A stretch of DNA of 64,000 nt from Oscillospiraceae bacterium (GCA_015063625.1 SVTT01000007.1:12780-76779); one strand, 5' to 3'; shown: positions 8,453 to 42,373, counted from the stretch's first letter. Numbers and translations are program-made. Notes: generated by a model not told the origin, from the letters alone.

Positions 8453-10338
8453 GTCGACGGCAAAGACGTACCGCGTGGCGCATCCTTGCGTCGTCCCTGC
8501 TGCTGCTTGCCGCATTTGCGGCAGAGCGTCTGCTGCCACGCGATCTCGGCACTCTGCCAACGCTGCTGCTGTATTTGCCCGCCTATCTGACGGCGGGCTA
8601 TGACGTATTGCTGGCGGCGGGACGAAGCATTTTGTCGGGACAGGTGTTTGACGAGCATTTTTTAATGGCGATCGCCACGCTTGGTGCACTTTCGATCGGA
8701 TTTTTGCCGGGGGGAGGGCACGAGTTTGCCGAGGCGGTCTTTGTGATGGTCTTTTACCAGGTGGGTGAGCTGTTCCAGAGCGTGGCGGTTTCAAGAAGCC
8801 GTCGCTCGATCGCGGCGCTGATGGATATCAAGCCCGAGACCGCACGCGTGCTCCGCGACGGTACGGAGCAGGAGATCTCTCCCGAGTCTGTTGCCGTGGG
8901 TGAAACGGTGCTGGTGCGCCCCGGAGAGCGCATTCCGCTTGACGGTGTGATCCTCGAGGGGATCTCGGATGTCAGCACGGTGGCGCTGACGGGTGAATCG
9001 CTTCCCGTTTCGGTACGGGAGGGTGACACCGTGATGGGGGGCAGCACCAATCTTTCGGGGCTTCTGATGATTCGCGCTCTGCGCCCCTTTGCCGAGTCCT
9101 CGGCTTCGCGTATCCTCGCGCTGATGGAGCATGCCTCTGCCAAAAAATCAAAAAGCGAGCGCTTCATCACGCGCTTTGCACGGTATTATACCCCTGCGGT
9201 GGTGGTGGCGGCGATCCTGCTTGCCATTCTGCCTCCGCTTGCCTCGGGTGCGTTTTCTGCCGCATTTCCCGTGTGGCTTGCCCGTGCGCTCACCTTTTTG
9301 GTGATCTCCTGCCCCTGCGCGCTGGTCATATCGGTCCCTCTCTCCTTTTTCGGAGGACTTGGCGGTGCCGCGCGCTTCGGCGTGCTGGTCAAGGGTGCCG
9401 ACAGCCTTGAAATGCTGGCGGGTGTGCGGACCGTGGTGTTTGACAAAACGGGAACGCTGACCAAGGGAAGACTGGCTGTGACGCGCGTTGTCGCTCTGAG
9501 GGGAGATGAACGGGAGCTGCTCGCCCTTGCCGCATCGGCGGAGGCAAGCTCCAATCATCCTGTGGCGCTGGCGCTGCGGGATTCGTTGCCGGCTGCCGTC
9601 ACACCTGCCACCGAGCTGCGTGAGCTGGCAGGCAGGGGCGTGATCGCCAAGGTCGCGGGTGAGGAGATCGCCGTAGGCAACGCGCTTCTGATGGAGGAGG
9701 CGGGTGTGGTATTTACCCCTGCCAACGAGATAGGGACGGTGGTTTACGTGGCACGTGAAGGCACTTATCTCGGGTATATCCTGATCTGCGATCAGATAAA
9801 GGAAAGCGCGGAGGCAAGCGTTTGTGCACTGCGTCATGTGGGTGTCACGCGTACCGTGATGCTCACGGGCGACCGAAAGGCAGTCGCCGATGCCGTCGCA
9901 CGGGCAGTCGGCATCGATACGGTGCATGCCGAGCTGCTGCCCGAGGAAAAGCTGACTGCGGTAGAGGGCATGCTTGCCGCGCACGATGGGAGCAGAGTTG
10001 CCTTTGTGGGTGACGGTATGAACGATGCTCCTGTGCTTGCCCGCGCCGATGTCGGCATTGCTATGGGTGCGCTTGGCTCGGATGCTGCGATCGAGGCGGC
10101 AGATGTGGTGCTGACCGATGATGATCCCACCAAGGTCGCACGCGTGATCAGACATGCACGCCGTACTCTTTCGATCGTGCGGCAGAACATCGTGCTCGCG
10201 CTGACCGTCAAGGGGGCGGTGCTCATTCTCTCCGCATTCGGACTGCTCGGTGCGTGGCAGATGCCCTTCGCTGTTTTCGCTGATGTGGGCGTGGCGGTGA
10301 TCGCCATTCTCAACGCCATGCGTGCGCTCAAAGCATAA
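8449..10338 (+). CDS. cadA: Heavy-metal translocating P1B-type ATPase (Cd/Zn/Pb type)
   Basis: TGES, CPC, DKTGT, SNHP, GDGMNDAP. Confidence 0.93.
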   Translation: MSRRQRRTAWRILASSLLLLAAFAAERLLPRDLGTLPTLLLYLPAYLTAGYDVLLAAGRSILSGQVFDEHFLMAIATLGALSIGFLPGGGHEFAEAVFVMVFYQVGELFQSVAVSRSRRSIAALMDIKPETARVLRDGTEQEISPESVAVGETVLVRPGERIPLDGVILEGISDVSTVALTGESLPVSVREGDTVMGGSTNLSGLLMIRALRPFAESSASRILALMEHASAKKSKSERFITRFARYYTPAVVVAAILLAILPPLASGAFSAAFPVWLARALTFLVISCPCALVISVPLSFFGGLGGAARFGVLVKGADSLEMLAGVRTVVFDKTGTLTKGRLAVTRVVALRGDERELLALAASAEASSNHPVALALRDSLPAAVTPATELRELAGRGVIAKVAGEEIAVGNALLMEEAGVVFTPANEIGTVVYVAREGTYLGYILICDQIKESAEASVCALRHVGVTRTVMLTGDRKAVADAVARAVGIDTVHAELLPEEKLTAVEGMLAAHDGSRVAFVGDGMNDAPVLARADVGIAMGALGSDAAIEAADVVLTDDDPTKVARVIRHARRTLSIVRQNIVLALTVKGAVLILSAFGLLGAWQMPFAVFADVGVAVIAILNAMRALKA

Positions 10339-38623: not shown

Positions 38624-38759
38624 GCAATCAAATAGGACGCGTGTGCTCTGCCGATCGGTACGAAAGGGCACGCGCGTCGCAGTTTTTCTGTCGAATCTTT
38701 TTTTGAAAAACAACTTGAAAAAGAGAGGGAGGTATGTTATAATAGCCATATCGTATTTT

Positions 38760-38835
38760 GGGCTCGTAGCTCAGCCGGGAGAGCGCTGCGTTCGCAACGC
38801 AGAGGTCGAGGGTTCGATCCCCTTCGGGTCCACCA
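38760..38835 (+). tRNA. tRNA-Ala(CGC)
   Basis: 76-nt cloverleaf, anticodon loop TTCGCAA, TTCGA T-loop, CCA; promoter TTGAAA-17-TATAAT upstream. Confidence 0.95.
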
Positions 38836-38990
38836 GCGGCAAGCTGCCGCTCCCGATGATCGGGGGAATGCGGTGCTATGCCGAGCCTCATACCACGATG
38901 GCGGTGTTCGGCTTTCAAGCCTTACCTCCACCGACGGCAAGCTGCCGTAACCAAAAATGGGGGGCGTGCGGCGATTCTCCCAAACAGTAT

Positions 38991-39067
38991 CTACCCGTGG
39001 CACAGCTGGATAGCGCGTCAGACTCCGACTCTGAAGGTCGAAGGTTCGAATCCTTTCGGGTAGGCCA
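38991..39067 (+). tRNA. tRNA-Arg(CCG)
   Basis: 77-nt cloverleaf CTACCCG/CGGGTAG, anticodon loop CTCCGAC, TTCGAAT T-loop, CCA. Confidence 0.95.
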
Positions 39068-39108
39068 AACAGAAAAGAGGGGGCTTGTCCCCCTCTTTTC
39101 TGTTTGGC
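39064..39108 (+). terminator. tRNA terminator overlapping the CCA end
   Basis: Perfect 20-bp stem GCCAAACAGAAAAGAGGGGG/CCCCCTCTTTTCTGTTTGGC. Confidence 0.8.
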
Positions 39109-39262
39109 TTGCTCGGAGGGCAAGAGAAACTTCGCAGCGGACAAAGTCCGCGGCGAAGGCAAGTTGCAAGGCAACTTGACAGCAGCCGCAAGGCTGCGTG
39201 GCGAATAGCCGCCGAGAGGCGGCGTCCTTTCGGGTAGGCCAAACAGAAAAGAGGGGGGCTTG

Positions 39263-39573
39263 GGGCACCTACCGTAAAGCAGTTTCATATCAAAACACAA
39301 AAGGGACGAGAAAACCTCGTCCCTTTTGCACACGACCTTGCCTGCAAGGAATAGTGTATGATACCGTATTTTGTTTTCGGGTGGTTTACGCAAAAGTGAT
39401 GTTACTCACTTCGTTCGTAATGATGTTGCTCCCAATAGTCGCAACGATGTGATGTTTGCCCACTGTGCCGTAGGCACTACATCACAGCCGAAGGCTACAT
39501 CATTAGGCAAAGCCGACATCACTTGCCTAAGGGCAAACATCGTTCGGCGCACCTGCTTTATCGCAGGTCGCCG
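39263..39573. mobile_element. 311-bp MITE-like insertion in the terminator loop of unit 2
   Basis: TTG on both sides (39260-62, 39574-76); imperfect terminal inverted repeats of about 20 bp; no ORF. Confidence 0.5.
39398..39543. repeat. Multibranch element with 4xGATGT then 4xACATC
   Basis: Motifs separated by mini-hairpins; 11-bp stem GATGTTTGCCC/GGGCAAACATC. Confidence 0.75.
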
Positions 39574-39847
39574 TTGTCCCCCTCTTTTCTGTTCGGCTTG
39601 CTCGGAGGGCAAGAGAAACTTCGCAGCGGACAAAGTCCGCGGCGAAGGCAAGTTGCAAGGCAACTTGACAGCAGCCGCAAGGCTGCGTGGCGAATAGCCG
39701 CCGAGAGGCGGCGTCCTTTCGGGTAGGATTTGTTATCCCCCTTGTGGGTGCTTTTCTTTTGCTAAATCACTTGTTTTTTTCCTCGTTTTGTGCTATAATC
39801 ATCGTTAATAAGCCAATCGAACCAAAAAGATCAGGGAGGAACTTAAC

Positions 39848-41770
39848 GTGACGTTTGCTTCTGTTATGGCTCTTGGGGCAAAGGTGCTGGGATGCGCCGT
39901 CGTGATATATATCCTTGCGGGCTTTCTTGTTTCCTTCAAGCGCCTCTTACCCATCCTTGCCATTGCATCGGGCGTGGGAACGGTCATTGCGATCTCCCAC
40001 ATACAAAAAAACGGTGCGGAAAGCCTTTTGTGGTTACCCATTGTCCTGTCGCTTCTGACGCAGCTGTTCTATCAGGGCGAGGGGTATCTGAACCCCAGAA
40101 TACACGAGAATCTGTATCAGCTGGTAAGCGTAGAACGAAAATGGAATTCTCTGTTTGCCGAATACGACGACTATGAATTGCATTTTTCTCCCGTTGAAAC
40201 GGGTGGCTTTGTCGAAAACACGCTGCTTCTCGGCATCCTGTTTGGGCTTTACTACAACGCCTTTATCTTTTCAGGAACGTTCAGCGAGGCGGCGTACATC
40301 CTGCCCCTGTATTTTCTTTTGATGTCGGTTCTCGACCTGCTGATGGCTTTCGGCATCCTGCGCCTTTCGGCGTTCTTTTATTGGGCGGCAAGAATTTTAA
40401 TGATCATTCTGTCGGTAGCCATTGCCTTTCTCGCCCCCTTTTCAAAGGACGACAGATCCCTTAATATCGAAGAATTATACGAGCAGTGCGCCCCACTTGT
40501 CAGGTTGGATTATACAACCTCTTATGCGGTTTCATACGAATACAGCGTCAAGTCAAGCAACGGCTACCAGCCGCGCGACAATGAAAGCGCAAGCTTTATC
40601 TACGATGCGGCTCTGGACGTCGGCGCAGAATACGATACGGTCTCTGCGGGCAGAATGTACGACAAAGTTTATATGAAGAATTCTCATTTTGACAATAAGC
40701 TCGTTCAGCTGGGCAACTTTGCGCCCTCGCGCCTTGACCTGGATTTCAAATTTATGCGCTACACCGAGGAGGTCGGCGGCCCGTTTAAATACAGAACGCT
40801 TAACGCGGTGGACTTTGCCCCTTACTGCGAGCTCACAATGCAAAAATTAGAGCATATCGGCGGCACTCCAATCGAGTATAACGACGACGAGCACCTGCTT
40901 AAAATTACCTATATTGCAAATTATGACAGCACCTACGTCCCCGAGGGCGACATAGAAAGCTATTCGGTTATCTGGTGCTTCAACACCGACGATGACAGAA
41001 ACGCCGTTTCGCTTTCCTATATCAACTTCACCGTATACCTGCGCGAAACCGAAAAGCAGGAGATACGGTACACTCCCCTTCACGACGGCAACACAGGGCT
41101 TGACGATCTGTTTGAGCGTGACGGATCTCTCAAAAACTATACCTATAAGGAAGGCGAGATCTACGGTATCGATTTTAACGAGATCATCAGCTCGCTCAAC
41201 GGTACAAGCGGTTCGTTTGACGATTACGATTTCAAAATGACCGAAACCTATAACAACGTTTCCTCGCTGTACGCATACGATGCCCAAACCGGAATCGTTG
41301 CGTTGTTCAAAACCAATTTTGCCAATGCCGATAATGCGCTTAGCAACGAGGATTTCACAACCTATCCCCCCGATTATTATATTGTAAACGCAAACCGCTC
41401 CAAATATGGCTCGGATCACGCGCTGATCGGAACACAGAGCAGCTCTGCCTTCAAGCAATATACCTACGATGATGGCATTGCCTCAAATGCAATCAGCAAG
41501 GTTTTCAGCGGAACCATGACTCTTGCCAACATTGTGGTTTACGTAACGCCTAACGGATACTTGGGGCACATCGAGCTTGTAGACCGAAACGAGGAGCTGG
41601 GCGTTGACGTCACATACTATTTCGGCCTAAGCCAATATATGAATAACGACAGATATTATTTCAATTCGCTTGATGCCCGCTTTACGTACGAGGGGCGGGA
41701 ATATTCTATGCGGCTTTATGCAAGCAGTAATTCTTTTGTCAACATCCCTGCACCGAGCAACGAAAAATAG
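39848..41770 (+). CDS. Hypothetical 640-aa protein: multi-TM N-terminus plus large Tyr/Asn/Asp-rich soluble domain
   Basis: GTG start with RBS AGGGAGG, extended -10 TGCTATAAT; visibly AT-richer than neighbouring genes. Confidence 0.85.
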   Translation: MTFASVMALGAKVLGCAVVIYILAGFLVSFKRLLPILAIASGVGTVIAISHIQKNGAESLLWLPIVLSLLTQLFYQGEGYLNPRIHENLYQLVSVERKWNSLFAEYDDYELHFSPVETGGFVENTLLLGILFGLYYNAFIFSGTFSEAAYILPLYFLLMSVLDLLMAFGILRLSAFFYWAARILMIILSVAIAFLAPFSKDDRSLNIEELYEQCAPLVRLDYTTSYAVSYEYSVKSSNGYQPRDNESASFIYDAALDVGAEYDTVSAGRMYDKVYMKNSHFDNKLVQLGNFAPSRLDLDFKFMRYTEEVGGPFKYRTLNAVDFAPYCELTMQKLEHIGGTPIEYNDDEHLLKITYIANYDSTYVPEGDIESYSVIWCFNTDDDRNAVSLSYINFTVYLRETEKQEIRYTPLHDGNTGLDDLFERDGSLKNYTYKEGEIYGIDFNEIISSLNGTSGSFDDYDFKMTETYNNVSSLYAYDAQTGIVALFKTNFANADNALSNEDFTTYPPDYYIVNANRSKYGSDHALIGTQSSSAFKQYTYDDGIASNAISKVFSGTMTLANIVVYVTPNGYLGHIELVDRNEELGVDVTYYFGLSQYMNNDRYYFNSLDARFTYEGREYSMRLYASSNSFVNIPAPSNEK

Positions 41771-41830
41771 CAAGCGTTTCACGATGTCTTAAATTAGTCA
41801 TTGCCCTGCAAGGGGCAATGACCCCTATAT

Positions 41831-41966
41831 CTACCCATGGCACAGCCGGATAGCGCGCGAGACTCCGACTCTGAAGGTCGAAGGCAAGTTGCAAGGCAAC
41901 TTGACAGCAGCCGCAAGGCTGCGTGGCGAATAGCCGCCGAGAGGCGGCGTCCTTTCGGGTAGGCCA
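41831..41966 (+). pseudogene. Decayed tRNA-Arg(CCG) copy with a 65-nt insert replacing the T-loop
   Basis: 41831-41884 equals tRNA 38991-39044 with 4 substitutions; 41950-41966 equals the tRNA 3' end. Confidence 0.88.
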
Positions 41967-42010
41967 AGAAAAAGCGACAAAATCCGACGGAATTTTGTCG
42001 CTTTTTCAAC

Positions 42011-42180
42011 TAAATCCGTCCTTTGGAACGGGATAAATCCAACTAAGTTGGGTGAAATCGCTTCGCAATGAAATCCCGCTTTCGCAGGGGGAGAGGACGG
42101 ATTTAATTTCATCTGAGGCGGTACGCCCAAGATTTCATCCAAACTTGTTTGGATTTCATCCTGCAAAGCAGGATTTCATT
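42011..42180. repeat. Multibranch element with 4xAAATC then 4-5x(G)ATTT
   Basis: 11-bp stem TAAATCCGTCC/GGACGGATTTA; motifs separated by mini-hairpins. Confidence 0.75.
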
Positions 42181-42373
42181 AAACTGCACACAAGTTCAAA
42201 TCCATATCGAAAAGCGAAAAATATGTTTTATCGCCACTTTAAAAACGGCAAGCTTCGACAGAAGCTTGCCGTTTTTTGCTTTTTACCTCTTTACTCCTTA
42301 CTCGAAACTGATCGATCAATTGACAGGTAAGGGTGAATGATGAAAAGGTGCCGATGTGGATTTTCGCTTCTTT

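What the first reader, a model, noticed from the sequence alone, without database searches (positions are those of the whole stretch)
41831..41966. tRNA-Arg copy whose T-loop is replaced by three hairpins; the tRNA part has decayed but the insert is pristine
Seen: nt 1-54 of the tRNA carry 4 substitutions, three of which break acceptor or anticodon-stem pairs. TTCGAA is replaced by the 65-nt H3-H5 block, and the T-stem and acceptor 3' strand with CCA remain. The 88 bp from 41879 to 41966 are identical to 39154-39241. Inference: either recent targeted insertion or conversion at the T-loop of an older tRNA duplicate, or deletion through the shared 6-bp CGAAGG microhomology. A tRNA-like RNA with an expanded T-arm is also possible.
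Basis: partly seen in the sequence, partly recalled or inferred. Interest (0 to 1): 0.7.

Follow-up and report, generated by a model that had tools for sequence, protein, structure and literature searches.

The report
tRNA-Arg copy fused to tRNA-linked hairpin module
This is a real but non-functional copy of a tRNA-Arg gene whose T-loop is occupied by three hairpins from a genus-wide family of structured repeats that sit behind tRNA genes; it shows that every such repeat is built as a mimic of its own tRNA's T-arm.

Summary
The exact 136 nt occur in eight further contigs from other samples. The three hairpins (H3-H5) are the 3' half of a roughly 150-nt structured module. I found about 92 copies in 27 of 40 species of this genus, behind 15 tRNA isoacceptors, and none in about 360 sampled genomes of other genera.

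The new point is that H3-H5 sit inside a T-arm mimic in every module. The cognate tRNA's T-stem 5' strand lies just before H3, and tRNA nt 60-76 follow H5. The chimera is an in-register join of a tRNA-Arg copy (nt 1-54) to that mimic.

It is the only such join among about 100 module hits and 40 genomes. I read it as a one-off recombinant (deletion or short-patch conversion), not a tRNA. It lies in the 3' UTR of a species-specific gene. Its four "decay" substitutions partly match alleles of other species, so its 5' part has a different history from the pristine 88 bp. The closest known analogue is the E. coli tRNA-linked repeats. The function of the modules remains unknown.

The parts
38991..39067 (+). 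Intact resident tRNA-Arg(CCG). It is the source or homologue of the 5' 54 nt and 3' 17 nt of the chimera.
   Evidence: ARAGORN and Rfam RF00005 at 58 bits. An identical allele occurs in at least 13 species of the genus.
39070..39120 (+). Terminator hairpin followed by a reverse copy (39105-39120) of the tRNA 3' end. Together with 39052-39083 it forms a 32-bp inverted repeat.
   Evidence: the repeat finder I2, 84% complementary; all mismatches are G.U on this strand.
39130..39159 (+). H2 of module E1. Its 3' strand, CGAAGG (39154-39159), copies the T-stem 5' strand of the tRNA.
   Evidence: Covariation in helices 1-2 of model R1/R2. The T5' copy matches the cognate tRNA in 51 of 69 modules.
39160..39224 (+). 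The 65-nt Y block of module E1: H3 39160-39178, H4 39182-39197, conserved GTGGCGAATA 39198-39207, H5 39208-39223, G 39224.
   Evidence: 96.5% of cells paired, and 30 of 32 pairs changed on both sides across 23 modules; slid controls gave 47% or less.
39225..39241 (+). Forward copy of tRNA nt 61-77 (T-stem 3' strand, acceptor 3' strand, CCA) that closes module E1.
   Evidence: Repeat family D2, 100%.
39574..39727 (+). Module E2 (99% identical to E1). It ends at GGGTAGG. Its last 85 bp (39643-39727) form a perfect direct repeat with 41879-41963, and the two repeats flank the gene.
39848..41770 (+). A 640-aa membrane-anchored protein gene with no Pfam family and low GC. It is absent from 38 of the 39 other genus genomes. 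The chimera lies in its 3' UTR.
41797..41822 (+). GCAA-loop hairpin after the gene, with no T-run, so it is not an intrinsic terminator.
   Evidence: Sequence; not listed among the terminator-like sites.
41831..41884 (+). Pseudo-tRNA-Arg 5' part (nt 1-54): acceptor 5' strand, D arm, anticodon arm with CCG, variable loop and T-stem 5' strand. It carries 4 substitutions.
   Evidence: Repeat family D3, 93%; allele comparison. This is the only 1-54 partial hit in 40 genomes.
41885..41949 (+). The Y block (H3 41885-41903, H4 41907-41922, GTGGCGAATA 41923-41932, H5 41933-41948, G 41949) in the place of T-loop letters TTCGAA.
   Evidence: 100% identical to E1 and E2; covariance-model hit of 78.8-89.5 bits.
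41950..41966 (+). T60, T-stem 3' strand, acceptor 3' strand, discriminator base and CCA.
   Evidence: Repeat family D2.
41968..42007 (+). Intrinsic terminator (16-bp stem followed by a T-run). It ends the gene-plus-chimera transcript.
   Evidence: the repeat finder I7; terminator scan.

Best explanation
The locus is a dead tRNA-Arg(CCG) paralogue joined in register to the 3' half of a tRNA-linked structured module.

Shown. The modules of this genus are built as: terminator, reverse copy of the tRNA 3' end, H2 whose 3' strand copies the tRNA's T-stem 5' strand, the Y block (H3, H4, GAATAG, H5), then tRNA nt 60-76. Each module therefore carries a T-arm whose loop is replaced by Y.

Inferred. A tRNA gene and a module share homology on both sides of the loop: 6 bp (CGAAGG) on the left and 17 bp on the right. 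Recombination between a tRNA-Arg copy and a module could have acted in one of two ways. Either it deleted the 109 bp between the two CGAAGG copies (T-loop, 3' end, terminator, reverse copy and H2 5' part, a stretch that folds into a 32-bp hairpin and so favours slippage). Or it copied Y into the T-loop by short-patch conversion. Either route yields exactly tRNA(1-54)-Y-tRNA(61-77).

The product is not a working tRNA and has no promoter of its own. It is carried passively in the 3' UTR of a species-specific gene and is fixed in the sampled population. Its module part is probably kept identical to E1 and E2 by conversion among the three copies. Its 5' part derives from a different or mosaic tRNA-Arg allele.
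For: - The anatomy and the 88-bp identity hold.
- The T-arm mimic is a family rule. The T5' copy is exact in 51 of 69 modules against 5.9 expected, and the tail matches at 8.5/10 against 5.2.
- A second module family splits the T-loop itself, as T5'+TTCG, insert, (CG)AAT+T3'. It lies behind tRNA-Arg in five species and behind tRNA-Glu in this genome.
- The modules are real structured elements with strong covariation. They are restricted to this genus: 27 of 40 genomes, and none of the about 360 sampled genomes of other genera in the order.
- There is only one chimera among 100 model hits, and only one partial tRNA-Arg 5' hit in 40 genomes. That fits an accident rather than a designed RNA.
- The stretch between the two CGAAGG copies contains the 32-bp inverted repeat I2.
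- The same repeats drive other rearrangements. E1 and E2 are tandem (489-bp period), and one sample carries a single-module variant (L141).
- There is no promoter upstream and a terminator downstream.
- Three stem pairs are broken, ARAGORN and Rfam are negative, and the cloverleaf fold is at -48.2 against a minimum of -60 kcal/mol.
- The asymmetry of 4/54 against 0/88 substitutions has p about 0.02. The substitutions match allele states of other species.
Against: - No precursor was found, neither a full tRNA' plus module nor an intact tRNA' without Y. All eight further contigs carry the finished chimera. The direction of the event (deletion, conversion or insertion) is therefore unproven.
- Six bp is very short for recombination.
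- The copy starts within 3 nt of the mature tRNA 5' end and ends at CCA. Such neat boundaries are not predicted by a random DNA duplication.
- Fixation and perfect conservation of the 136 nt in every sample would also fit a function.
- No RNA data could be obtained.
Confidence: 0.55

Rival explanations
1. Primary insertion. The 65-nt Y block is itself a mobile or homing cassette that enters tRNA T-loops at the DNA level. The chimera is then the only surviving fresh insertion into a full-length tRNA copy. Ordinary modules would be older insertions in which only the T-arm and 3' end of the disrupted copy remain.
For: - Y is always flanked by the cognate T-stem strands.
- A second family interrupts the T-loop after TTCG.
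- The same genome holds a full-length tRNA-Lys(CTT) copy with hairpins in the D loop and the anticodon loop.
- Modules are patchily distributed over 15 tRNAs. Y blocks are hardly more alike within a tRNA type (0.66) than between types (0.61), which suggests movement between tRNA loci.
- Earlier notes from this scan describe similar loop-wedged repeats in other lineages (leads only).
Against: - The parts 5' of the T5' copy (H1/reverse copy, the GAGAA linker, H2) are also homologous between modules at different tRNAs. The spreading unit is therefore larger than Y.
- No enzyme candidate was found. No TnpB occurs in the genus, and Y1 transposase is absent from this genome and from the module-rich genomes G032, G013 and G009.
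- There is only one full-length example in 40 genomes.
Confidence: 0.2
2. Functional tRNA-like RNA. The acceptor stem plus T-stem form a minihelix that RNase P and the 3'-end enzymes process. This would release a stable RNA with an expanded T-arm, or define the 3' end of the upstream mRNA, as tRNA-like elements do elsewhere.
For: - The acceptor stem (6 of 7 bp), the T-stem and CCA are retained.
- The element lies between a terminator-less hairpin and the only terminator of the gene.
- All 136 nt are identical in every sample.
- G.U outnumbers A.C 92 to 32, and there are 26 GNRA loops on the tRNA-sense strand against none among the commonest loop classes on the antisense strand. This suggests the modules fold as RNA.
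- E. coli tRNA-linked repeats are transcribed by terminator read-through and processed (PMC8144298).
Against: - It is unique in the genus.
- Three stem pairs are broken without compensation.
- The cloverleaf fold is 12 kcal/mol above the minimum, and the fold z-score is only -2.8.
- Identity across samples may only reflect one clonal species population (over 99.9% identity across 4-5 kb).
Confidence: 0.12
3. Attachment-site scar. The gene was brought in by a tRNA-targeting integrative element or circle. The chimera is a hybrid att site made when the 85-88-bp module homology recombined (Campbell-type) with E2.
For: - Perfect 85-bp direct repeats (39643-39727 and 41879-41963) flank a low-GC gene that is nearly unique to this species.
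- A second single-gene segment in this genome lies between tRNA-Lys copies.
- The 5' part carries allele states seen in other species.
Against: - No integrase or other recombinase lies in or beside the segment.
- Homologues of the gene elsewhere lie in ordinary chromosomal contexts, not at tRNAs.
- The module part is 100% identical to the resident copy, although modules differ by 27-35% between species. A foreign att site is therefore unlikely.
Confidence: 0.1
4. Assembly artefact that joins repeats.
For: The region is repeat-rich. Some public contigs join the neighbouring 311-bp repeat to another locus (C2).
Against: Eight further contigs contain the exact 136 nt with both unique flanks. k=141 exceeds the 88-bp repeat, and unitigs from four runs cross the joint.
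Confidence: 0.01

Closest known systems
E. coli tRNA-linked repeats (TLRs; tyrT/tyrV 178-bp repeats, RtT RNA, rrA/rrB/rrF)
   Same: Non-coding units lie directly behind tRNA (or rRNA) genes, with 1-5 tandem copies per locus. Each ends in 18-19 bp identical to the 3' end of the upstream gene. They lie between two terminators, and the three studied units (rrA, rrB, rrF) are transcribed by read-through. Their function is unknown (PMC8144298).
   Different: There is no sequence or Rfam relation; RF00391 was not hit even at E<=10. The modules here also copy the T-stem 5' strand and carry a reverse copy of the 3' end. They hold four or five covarying hairpins and are confined to one genus of gut Clostridia. 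As far as I know, a fusion to a full tRNA 5' part is not described for TLRs.
tRNA-gene attachment sites of integrative elements (T-loop class of tyrosine integrases)
   Same: The tRNA segment from the T-arm to the 3' end is duplicated, the intact tRNA is kept on one side, and an accessory gene lies between the repeats (established knowledge of att sites in tRNA genes).
   Different: No integrase is present. The T-loop, which is the usual crossover site, is absent and replaced by 65 structured nt. The partial copy here keeps the 5' part of the tRNA, not only the 3' part.
Palindrome-stimulated deletion between short direct repeats, and quasipalindrome template switching
   Same: Two 6-bp direct repeats flank a strong hairpin (a 32-bp inverted repeat). 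This is the classical substrate for replication slippage (established knowledge from E. coli genetics).
   Different: The mechanism is inferred only. No precursor allele was found.
Non-canonical tRNA introns (archaeal bulge-helix-bulge introns in the T-loop)
   Same: A tRNA gene is interrupted in the T-loop by a structured insert.
   Different: The host is bacterial and no splicing endonuclease is expected. The stems of the tRNA part are broken. The same insert occurs in about 90 places that are not tRNA genes.
REP/BIME, BOX, Correia-type intergenic hairpin repeats
   Same: They are short, gene-less, hairpin-rich, multi-copy, lineage-restricted and lie at gene ends.
   Different: Those repeats are not tailored to the neighbouring gene. 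Here three segments of each copy match the adjacent tRNA.

Membership tests
tRNA (Rfam RF00005 / ARAGORN) | Cloverleaf with a 7-nt T-loop, scored by a covariance model | tested here: not met
   There was no hit at 41831-41966 with ARAGORN, with Rfam at gathering score, or at E<=10. Three stem pairs are broken and the T-loop is absent.
   The chimera scores 89.5 bits with R1 and 78.8 bits with R2. The core is 100% identical to E1 and E2.
   The chimera lies 2.8 kb from the tRNA. It has tRNA nt 1-48 where other modules have the reverse copy and H2.
E. coli tRNA-linked repeats / RtT RNA (RF00391) | 3' end identical to the 3' end of the upstream tRNA; tandem units behind the tRNA | tested here: met
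   Seventeen nt are identical to the tRNA-Arg 3' end, and E1 and E2 are tandem. This is a resemblance in layout only.
E. coli tRNA-linked repeats / RtT RNA (RF00391) | Sequence and structure homology to the Rfam model | tested here: not met
   RF00391 was not among the matches at E<=10 over 38700-42300.
IS200/IS605 ends or TnpB omega-RNA | Presence of TnpA (Y1) or TnpB in genomes that carry the element | tested here: not met
   PF07282 was found in 0 of 40 genomes. PF01797 was found in 15 of 40, but not in G000, G032, G013, G009 or G033, which hold 3-9 modules each.
Integrase-type att site in a tRNA gene | A site-specific recombinase gene adjacent to the repeat-flanked segment | tested here: not met
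   The only ORF between the repeats is the 640-aa protein with no Pfam hit. The neighbours are nrdD, nrdG, an AEC transporter and DUF1934. Phage_integrase was not searched genome-wide.
Bulge-helix-bulge tRNA intron | BHB motif at both exon-intron junctions and a splicing endonuclease in the genome | not tested
   Considered unlikely because the insert is a multi-copy module found outside tRNA genes.

The most novel reading that the evidence does not exclude
The Y block, or the whole module, could be a small enzyme-less or trans-mobilised element that homes into the T-arm of tRNA gene copies, using the T-stem strands as its address. The chimera would then be the one preserved full-length intermediate. 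It would show how these tRNA-tailored modules, and by analogy the unexplained E. coli tRNA-linked repeats, are born. The modules might in addition be processed by RNase P and 3'-end enzymes as tRNA-minihelix-bounded RNAs.
Probability: 0.2. Interest if true: 0.75.

Novelty: new variant of a known kind. Interest (0 to 1): 0.5.

Why it matters
tRNA-linked repeats have been known in E. coli since 1978 and still lack an explanation. This genus offers a much richer case: about 90 covarying copies behind 15 tRNAs.

The chimera makes the construction principle visible. Each repeat carries a T-arm of its own tRNA with the loop replaced by structured RNA or DNA. That turns a vague statement ('the repeat shares the tRNA 3' end') into a testable model of how such elements arise, move between tRNA loci, and generate tRNA pseudogenes and small gene-carrying segments.

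For annotation, it warns that tRNA-like fragments near tRNA genes in gut Clostridia are by-products of these modules, not split or intron-containing tRNAs.

Tried and rejected
- Rfam over the region at E<=10. It found only the two real tRNAs, sub-threshold Gut-1 matches beside the locus, and spurious miRNA hairpins.
- IS200/IS605 or TnpB guide-RNA idea (scaffold plus a 3' 'guide' equal to the tRNA 3' end, with the T-loop as target motif). Rejected: no TnpB in the genus, and Y1 transposase does not co-occur with modules.
- Phage and plasmid records. No match to the module.
- RNA evidence. The only candidate run (X13) does not contain this organism.
- Search for a donor context of the 640-aa gene. 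Homologues at 33-57% identity lie in ordinary loci, not next to tRNA-Arg.
- Search for an empty-site allele. One low-depth contig in run X4 joins 39077 to 39738, giving a perfect terminator right after tRNA-Arg. Two scans of JGI metagenome contigs for that joint found nothing. It remains a weak lead.
- The 95-nt 'tRNA-Met' on C1 is an ARAGORN false positive inside a coding region.
- MAFFT alignments of the modules were not structure-aware. They were replaced by covariance-model alignments.
- A test of strand asymmetry in the outer helix (reverse copy against forward copy) was uninformative, with G.U 47 and A.C 45.

Full report
**Observation.** Window 38991-39067 is an intact tRNA-Arg(CCG). Window 41831-41966 repeats its first 54 nt with four changes (G7A, T17C, T28C, C29G in raw numbering). 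It then has 65 nt where the tRNA has TTCGAA, and then the last 17 nt of the tRNA, TCCTTTCGGGTAGGCCA. Three of the changes unpair the acceptor or anticodon stem. Positions 41879-41966 are identical to 39154-39241. Neither ARAGORN nor Rfam, even at E<=10, calls the locus a tRNA.

**The joint is real.**
- Logan unitigs of runs X1, X2, X3 and X5 cross 41884/41885 without a difference.
- The 85-nt repeat unitig has roughly three times single-copy depth.
- The exact 136-mer with unique sequence on both sides is present in ENA MEGAHIT k141 contigs from three samples and in JGI contigs from five metagenomes.
- Some of those contigs join the neighbouring 311-bp repeat to another locus of the genome, C2. 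One sample (L141) has a single module between tRNA-Arg and the gene. The surroundings therefore vary or are hard to assemble, but the chimera itself does not vary.

**What the 65 nt are.** In this genome the block occurs three times, all in this locus. It is the 3' half of a module of about 150 nt that follows tRNA-Arg.

I built a covariance model of the core (H2 to H5) and iterated it. The helices covary strongly: 96.5% of cells are paired, and 30 of 32 pairs changed on both sides. Slid controls reached at most 47%. The alignment is model-fitted, which inflates these figures somewhat.

The improved model finds about 92 copies in 27 of 40 species genomes of the genus. It finds none outside the genus among 401 genomes sampled from the order, although stricter filters applied in that search.

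The modules lie 40-66 nt behind tRNA-Arg(CCG, ACG), Trp, Leu(TAG), Tyr, Ser(TGA, CGA, GGA), Gln(CTG, TTG), Pro(TGG, CGG), Thr(CGT), Lys(TTT) and Glu(CTC). They always sit on the tRNA's strand, after its terminator hairpin, and often in tandem.

On the tRNA-sense strand, G.U pairs outnumber A.C mismatches 92 to 32. There are 26 GNRA loops, against none among the commonest loop classes on the other strand. This mildly favours folding of that strand as RNA.

**The key structural rule.** In every module the 5-7 nt immediately 5' of H3, which also form the 3' strand of the lower stem of H2, are the T-stem 5' strand of the cognate tRNA:
- CGAAGG for the common tRNA-Arg allele, and GCAGG for the G022 allele and for Leu;
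- CGTGGG for Trp and Ser, CTAGG for Gln(CTG), GTCGG for Gln(TTG);
- GCAAG for Pro(CGG), and CGGAG for Lys.

Immediately after H5 come G, then T60, then the T-stem 3' strand and the acceptor 3' strand of the same tRNA.

The numbers support this. The T5' copy is exact in 51 of 69 modules, against a mean of 5.9 (maximum 13) in 1000 reassignments to another tRNA type. The 10 nt after H5 match tRNA nt 60-69 at 8.5/10, against 5.2. Most misses are Tyr modules with 4 of 5 matches.

A second module family, invisible to my model, sits behind tRNA-Arg(CCG) in G034, G016, G062, G002 and G005, and behind tRNA-Glu(TTC) in this genome. It splits the T-loop itself: T5'+TTCG, insert, (CG)AAT+T3'. At least ten further tRNAs of this genome have a forward copy of their 3' end 125-380 nt downstream.

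So 'T-arm with the loop replaced' is how these modules are built.

**What is special about 41831-41966.** Other modules have a reverse copy of the 3' end, a GAGAA-type linker and the 5' strand of H2 ahead of the T5' copy. This locus instead has tRNA nt 1-48 in perfect register.

I compared the 75 nt upstream of H3 of all 100 model hits with all tRNA 5' parts found in the fetched loci. Only this locus matched. A search of the 40 genomes with the tRNA itself found full-length genes and only one 1-54 partial hit, this one. The join is therefore a one-off in the genus.

The same genome does hold a second loop-interrupted tRNA copy. On C9, minus strand, about 38749-38863 and 39 nt after tRNA-Lys(CTT), lies a full-length tRNA-Lys copy. 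It has a 21-nt hairpin in the D loop and another in the anticodon loop. It is followed by a single-gene segment and a second tRNA-Lys.

**History of the two halves.** The resident tRNA-Arg allele is identical in at least 13 species, whereas Y blocks differ by 27-35% between species. Yet the chimera has 4 differences in its 54 tRNA letters and none in its 88 module letters (p about 0.02).

A7 is the state of the allele of G030, G061, G062, G021 and G008, where it pairs with T66. C28G29 is the state of the alleles of G025, G026, G063 and G022, where it is compensated. The 5' part therefore looks like a different or mosaic allele rather than a randomly eroded copy. The module part is either very recent or kept uniform by conversion with E1 and E2, which themselves differ at 1 of 154 positions.

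**Context.** The chimera lies 60 nt after a 640-aa membrane-anchored protein gene. That gene has no Pfam family and 47-49% GC against 53-58% around it. It is absent from 38 of the other 39 genus genomes. Its homologues elsewhere are not next to tRNAs.

There is no promoter-like site before the chimera. The hairpin after the gene has no T-run, and the only terminator follows the chimera. The chimera should therefore be transcribed as part of the mRNA's 3' UTR. Perfect 85-bp direct repeats (39643-39727 in E2 and 41879-41963) flank the gene.

**Mechanism.** The most economical reading is recombination between a tRNA-Arg copy and a module through their shared T-arm flanks.

One route is deletion of the 109 bp between the two CGAAGG copies. 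That stretch contains a 32-bp inverted repeat (tRNA 3' end plus terminator against terminator plus reverse copy), which is the classical substrate for slippage across a hairpin. The other route is a short conversion patch that copies Y into the T-loop, using 6 bp on the left and 17 bp on the right. I could not find either precursor allele, so the direction remains inferred.

Three rivals stay open at lower odds:
- a primary, targeted insertion of Y into T-loops;
- a processed tRNA-like RNA;
- a hybrid attachment site of a gene-carrying circle.

The guide-RNA/IS200-IS605 idea was tested and rejected. Phage and plasmid records hold nothing similar.

**Comparison with known systems.** The closest described thing is the E. 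coli tRNA-linked repeats. There are 22 units at ten loci, with 1-5 per locus. Each ends in 18-19 bp identical to the 3' end of the upstream tRNA or rRNA gene. The three studied units (rrA, rrB, rrF) lie between two terminators and are transcribed by read-through. Their function is unknown (PMC8144298).

The present modules share that layout but not the sequence; RF00391 was not hit. They go further by copying the T-stem 5' strand and by adding an inverted copy. Earlier notes of this scan describe the same module family here and similar tRNA-tailored repeats in other lineages. I used them as leads only, and re-derived the family, its distribution and its association with tRNAs independently.

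**Verdict.** This is a real, fixed, non-functional tRNA-Arg/module recombinant. Its main value is that it exposes the T-arm-mimic design of an undescribed, genus-restricted family of tRNA-linked structured repeats. The function and mode of spread of that family remain open.

Noticed in passing
G000 contig C9, minus strand, about 38749-38863 (outside the window): A full-length tRNA-Lys(CTT) pseudo-copy lies 39 nt after the real tRNA-Lys. It has a 21-nt hairpin inserted in the D loop and a second 21-nt hairpin in the anticodon loop. It is followed by a single esterase-like gene and a second tRNA-Lys(CTT) with the same downstream sequence. ARAGORN does not call it.
   Followed up: partly
L164-L167, L163, L100 (G034, G016, G006, G005, G062, G002) and G000 C19 downstream of tRNA-Glu(TTC) 88286-88360: A second family of tRNA-linked modules that my model R2 does not detect. 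It has a reverse copy of the 3' end, then T-stem 5' strand + TTCG, a structured insert ('tttccccgcccgaagatcgg...'), then (CG)AAT + T-stem 3' strand. The insert therefore sits inside the T-loop.
   Followed up: partly
G000 genome: tRNA-Leu(TAG) C1, Leu(CAG) C19, Leu(GAG) C21, Arg(ACG) C22, Lys(TTT) C11, Gly(GCC) C28, Asn C9: Perfect or near-perfect forward copies of each tRNA's 3' end lie 125-380 nt downstream. Several are in tandem units and keep an intact T-loop. These are further module families in the same genome.
   Followed up: partly
window 42007-42079 (+), 42127-42207 (-), 39474-39545 (-): Sub-threshold matches to Rfam Gut-1 RNA (RF01706): 45.9, 42.3 and 24.6 bits against a gathering score of 50. 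They fall in the 'motif/anti-motif' multi-hairpin elements beside the locus.
   Followed up: no
window 39259-39573; G000 C2 about 10094-10170; L143 3630-3672: The 311-bp insert in the terminator loop between E1 and E2 is a multi-copy repeat, with very high depth in metagenomes. Its start recurs on contig C2, and public contigs (L140, L168-L170) join the C2 flank to it. Its terminal hairpin GGCGACCTGCGATAAAGCAGGT also follows a homologue of the 640-aa gene in another organism.
   Followed up: partly
window 38829-38971: The spacer between tRNA-Ala and tRNA-Arg holds a second copy of the tRNA-Ala 3' end plus its GCAAGC hairpin (TCCACCAGCGGCAAGCTGCCGC and TCCACCGACGGCAAGCTGCCGT, 98 bp apart). Relatives have a shorter spacer.
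   Followed up: no
window 39077/39738 (run X4): One low-depth contig joins 39077 to 39738 with CA between. This gives a perfect 12-bp terminator (AGAAAAGCACCC-CTTGT-GGGTGCTTTTCT) directly after tRNA-Arg. It suggests that 39736-39760 is the right half of an ancestral tRNA-Arg terminator and that the module array is an insertion into it. Two metagenome scans did not confirm this.
   Followed up: partly
L141 (ENA ERZ27248314): This is a variant with only one module (E1 type) between tRNA-Arg and the 640-aa gene. It lacks the 489 bp that hold the 311-bp insert and the second unit, so module copy number may vary within the species.
   Followed up: no
L152 and L163 (G062): One genome of the genus carries two different tRNA-Arg(CCG) alleles: the common allele, and the A7/T66 allele with T-stem CGCGG.
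   Followed up: no
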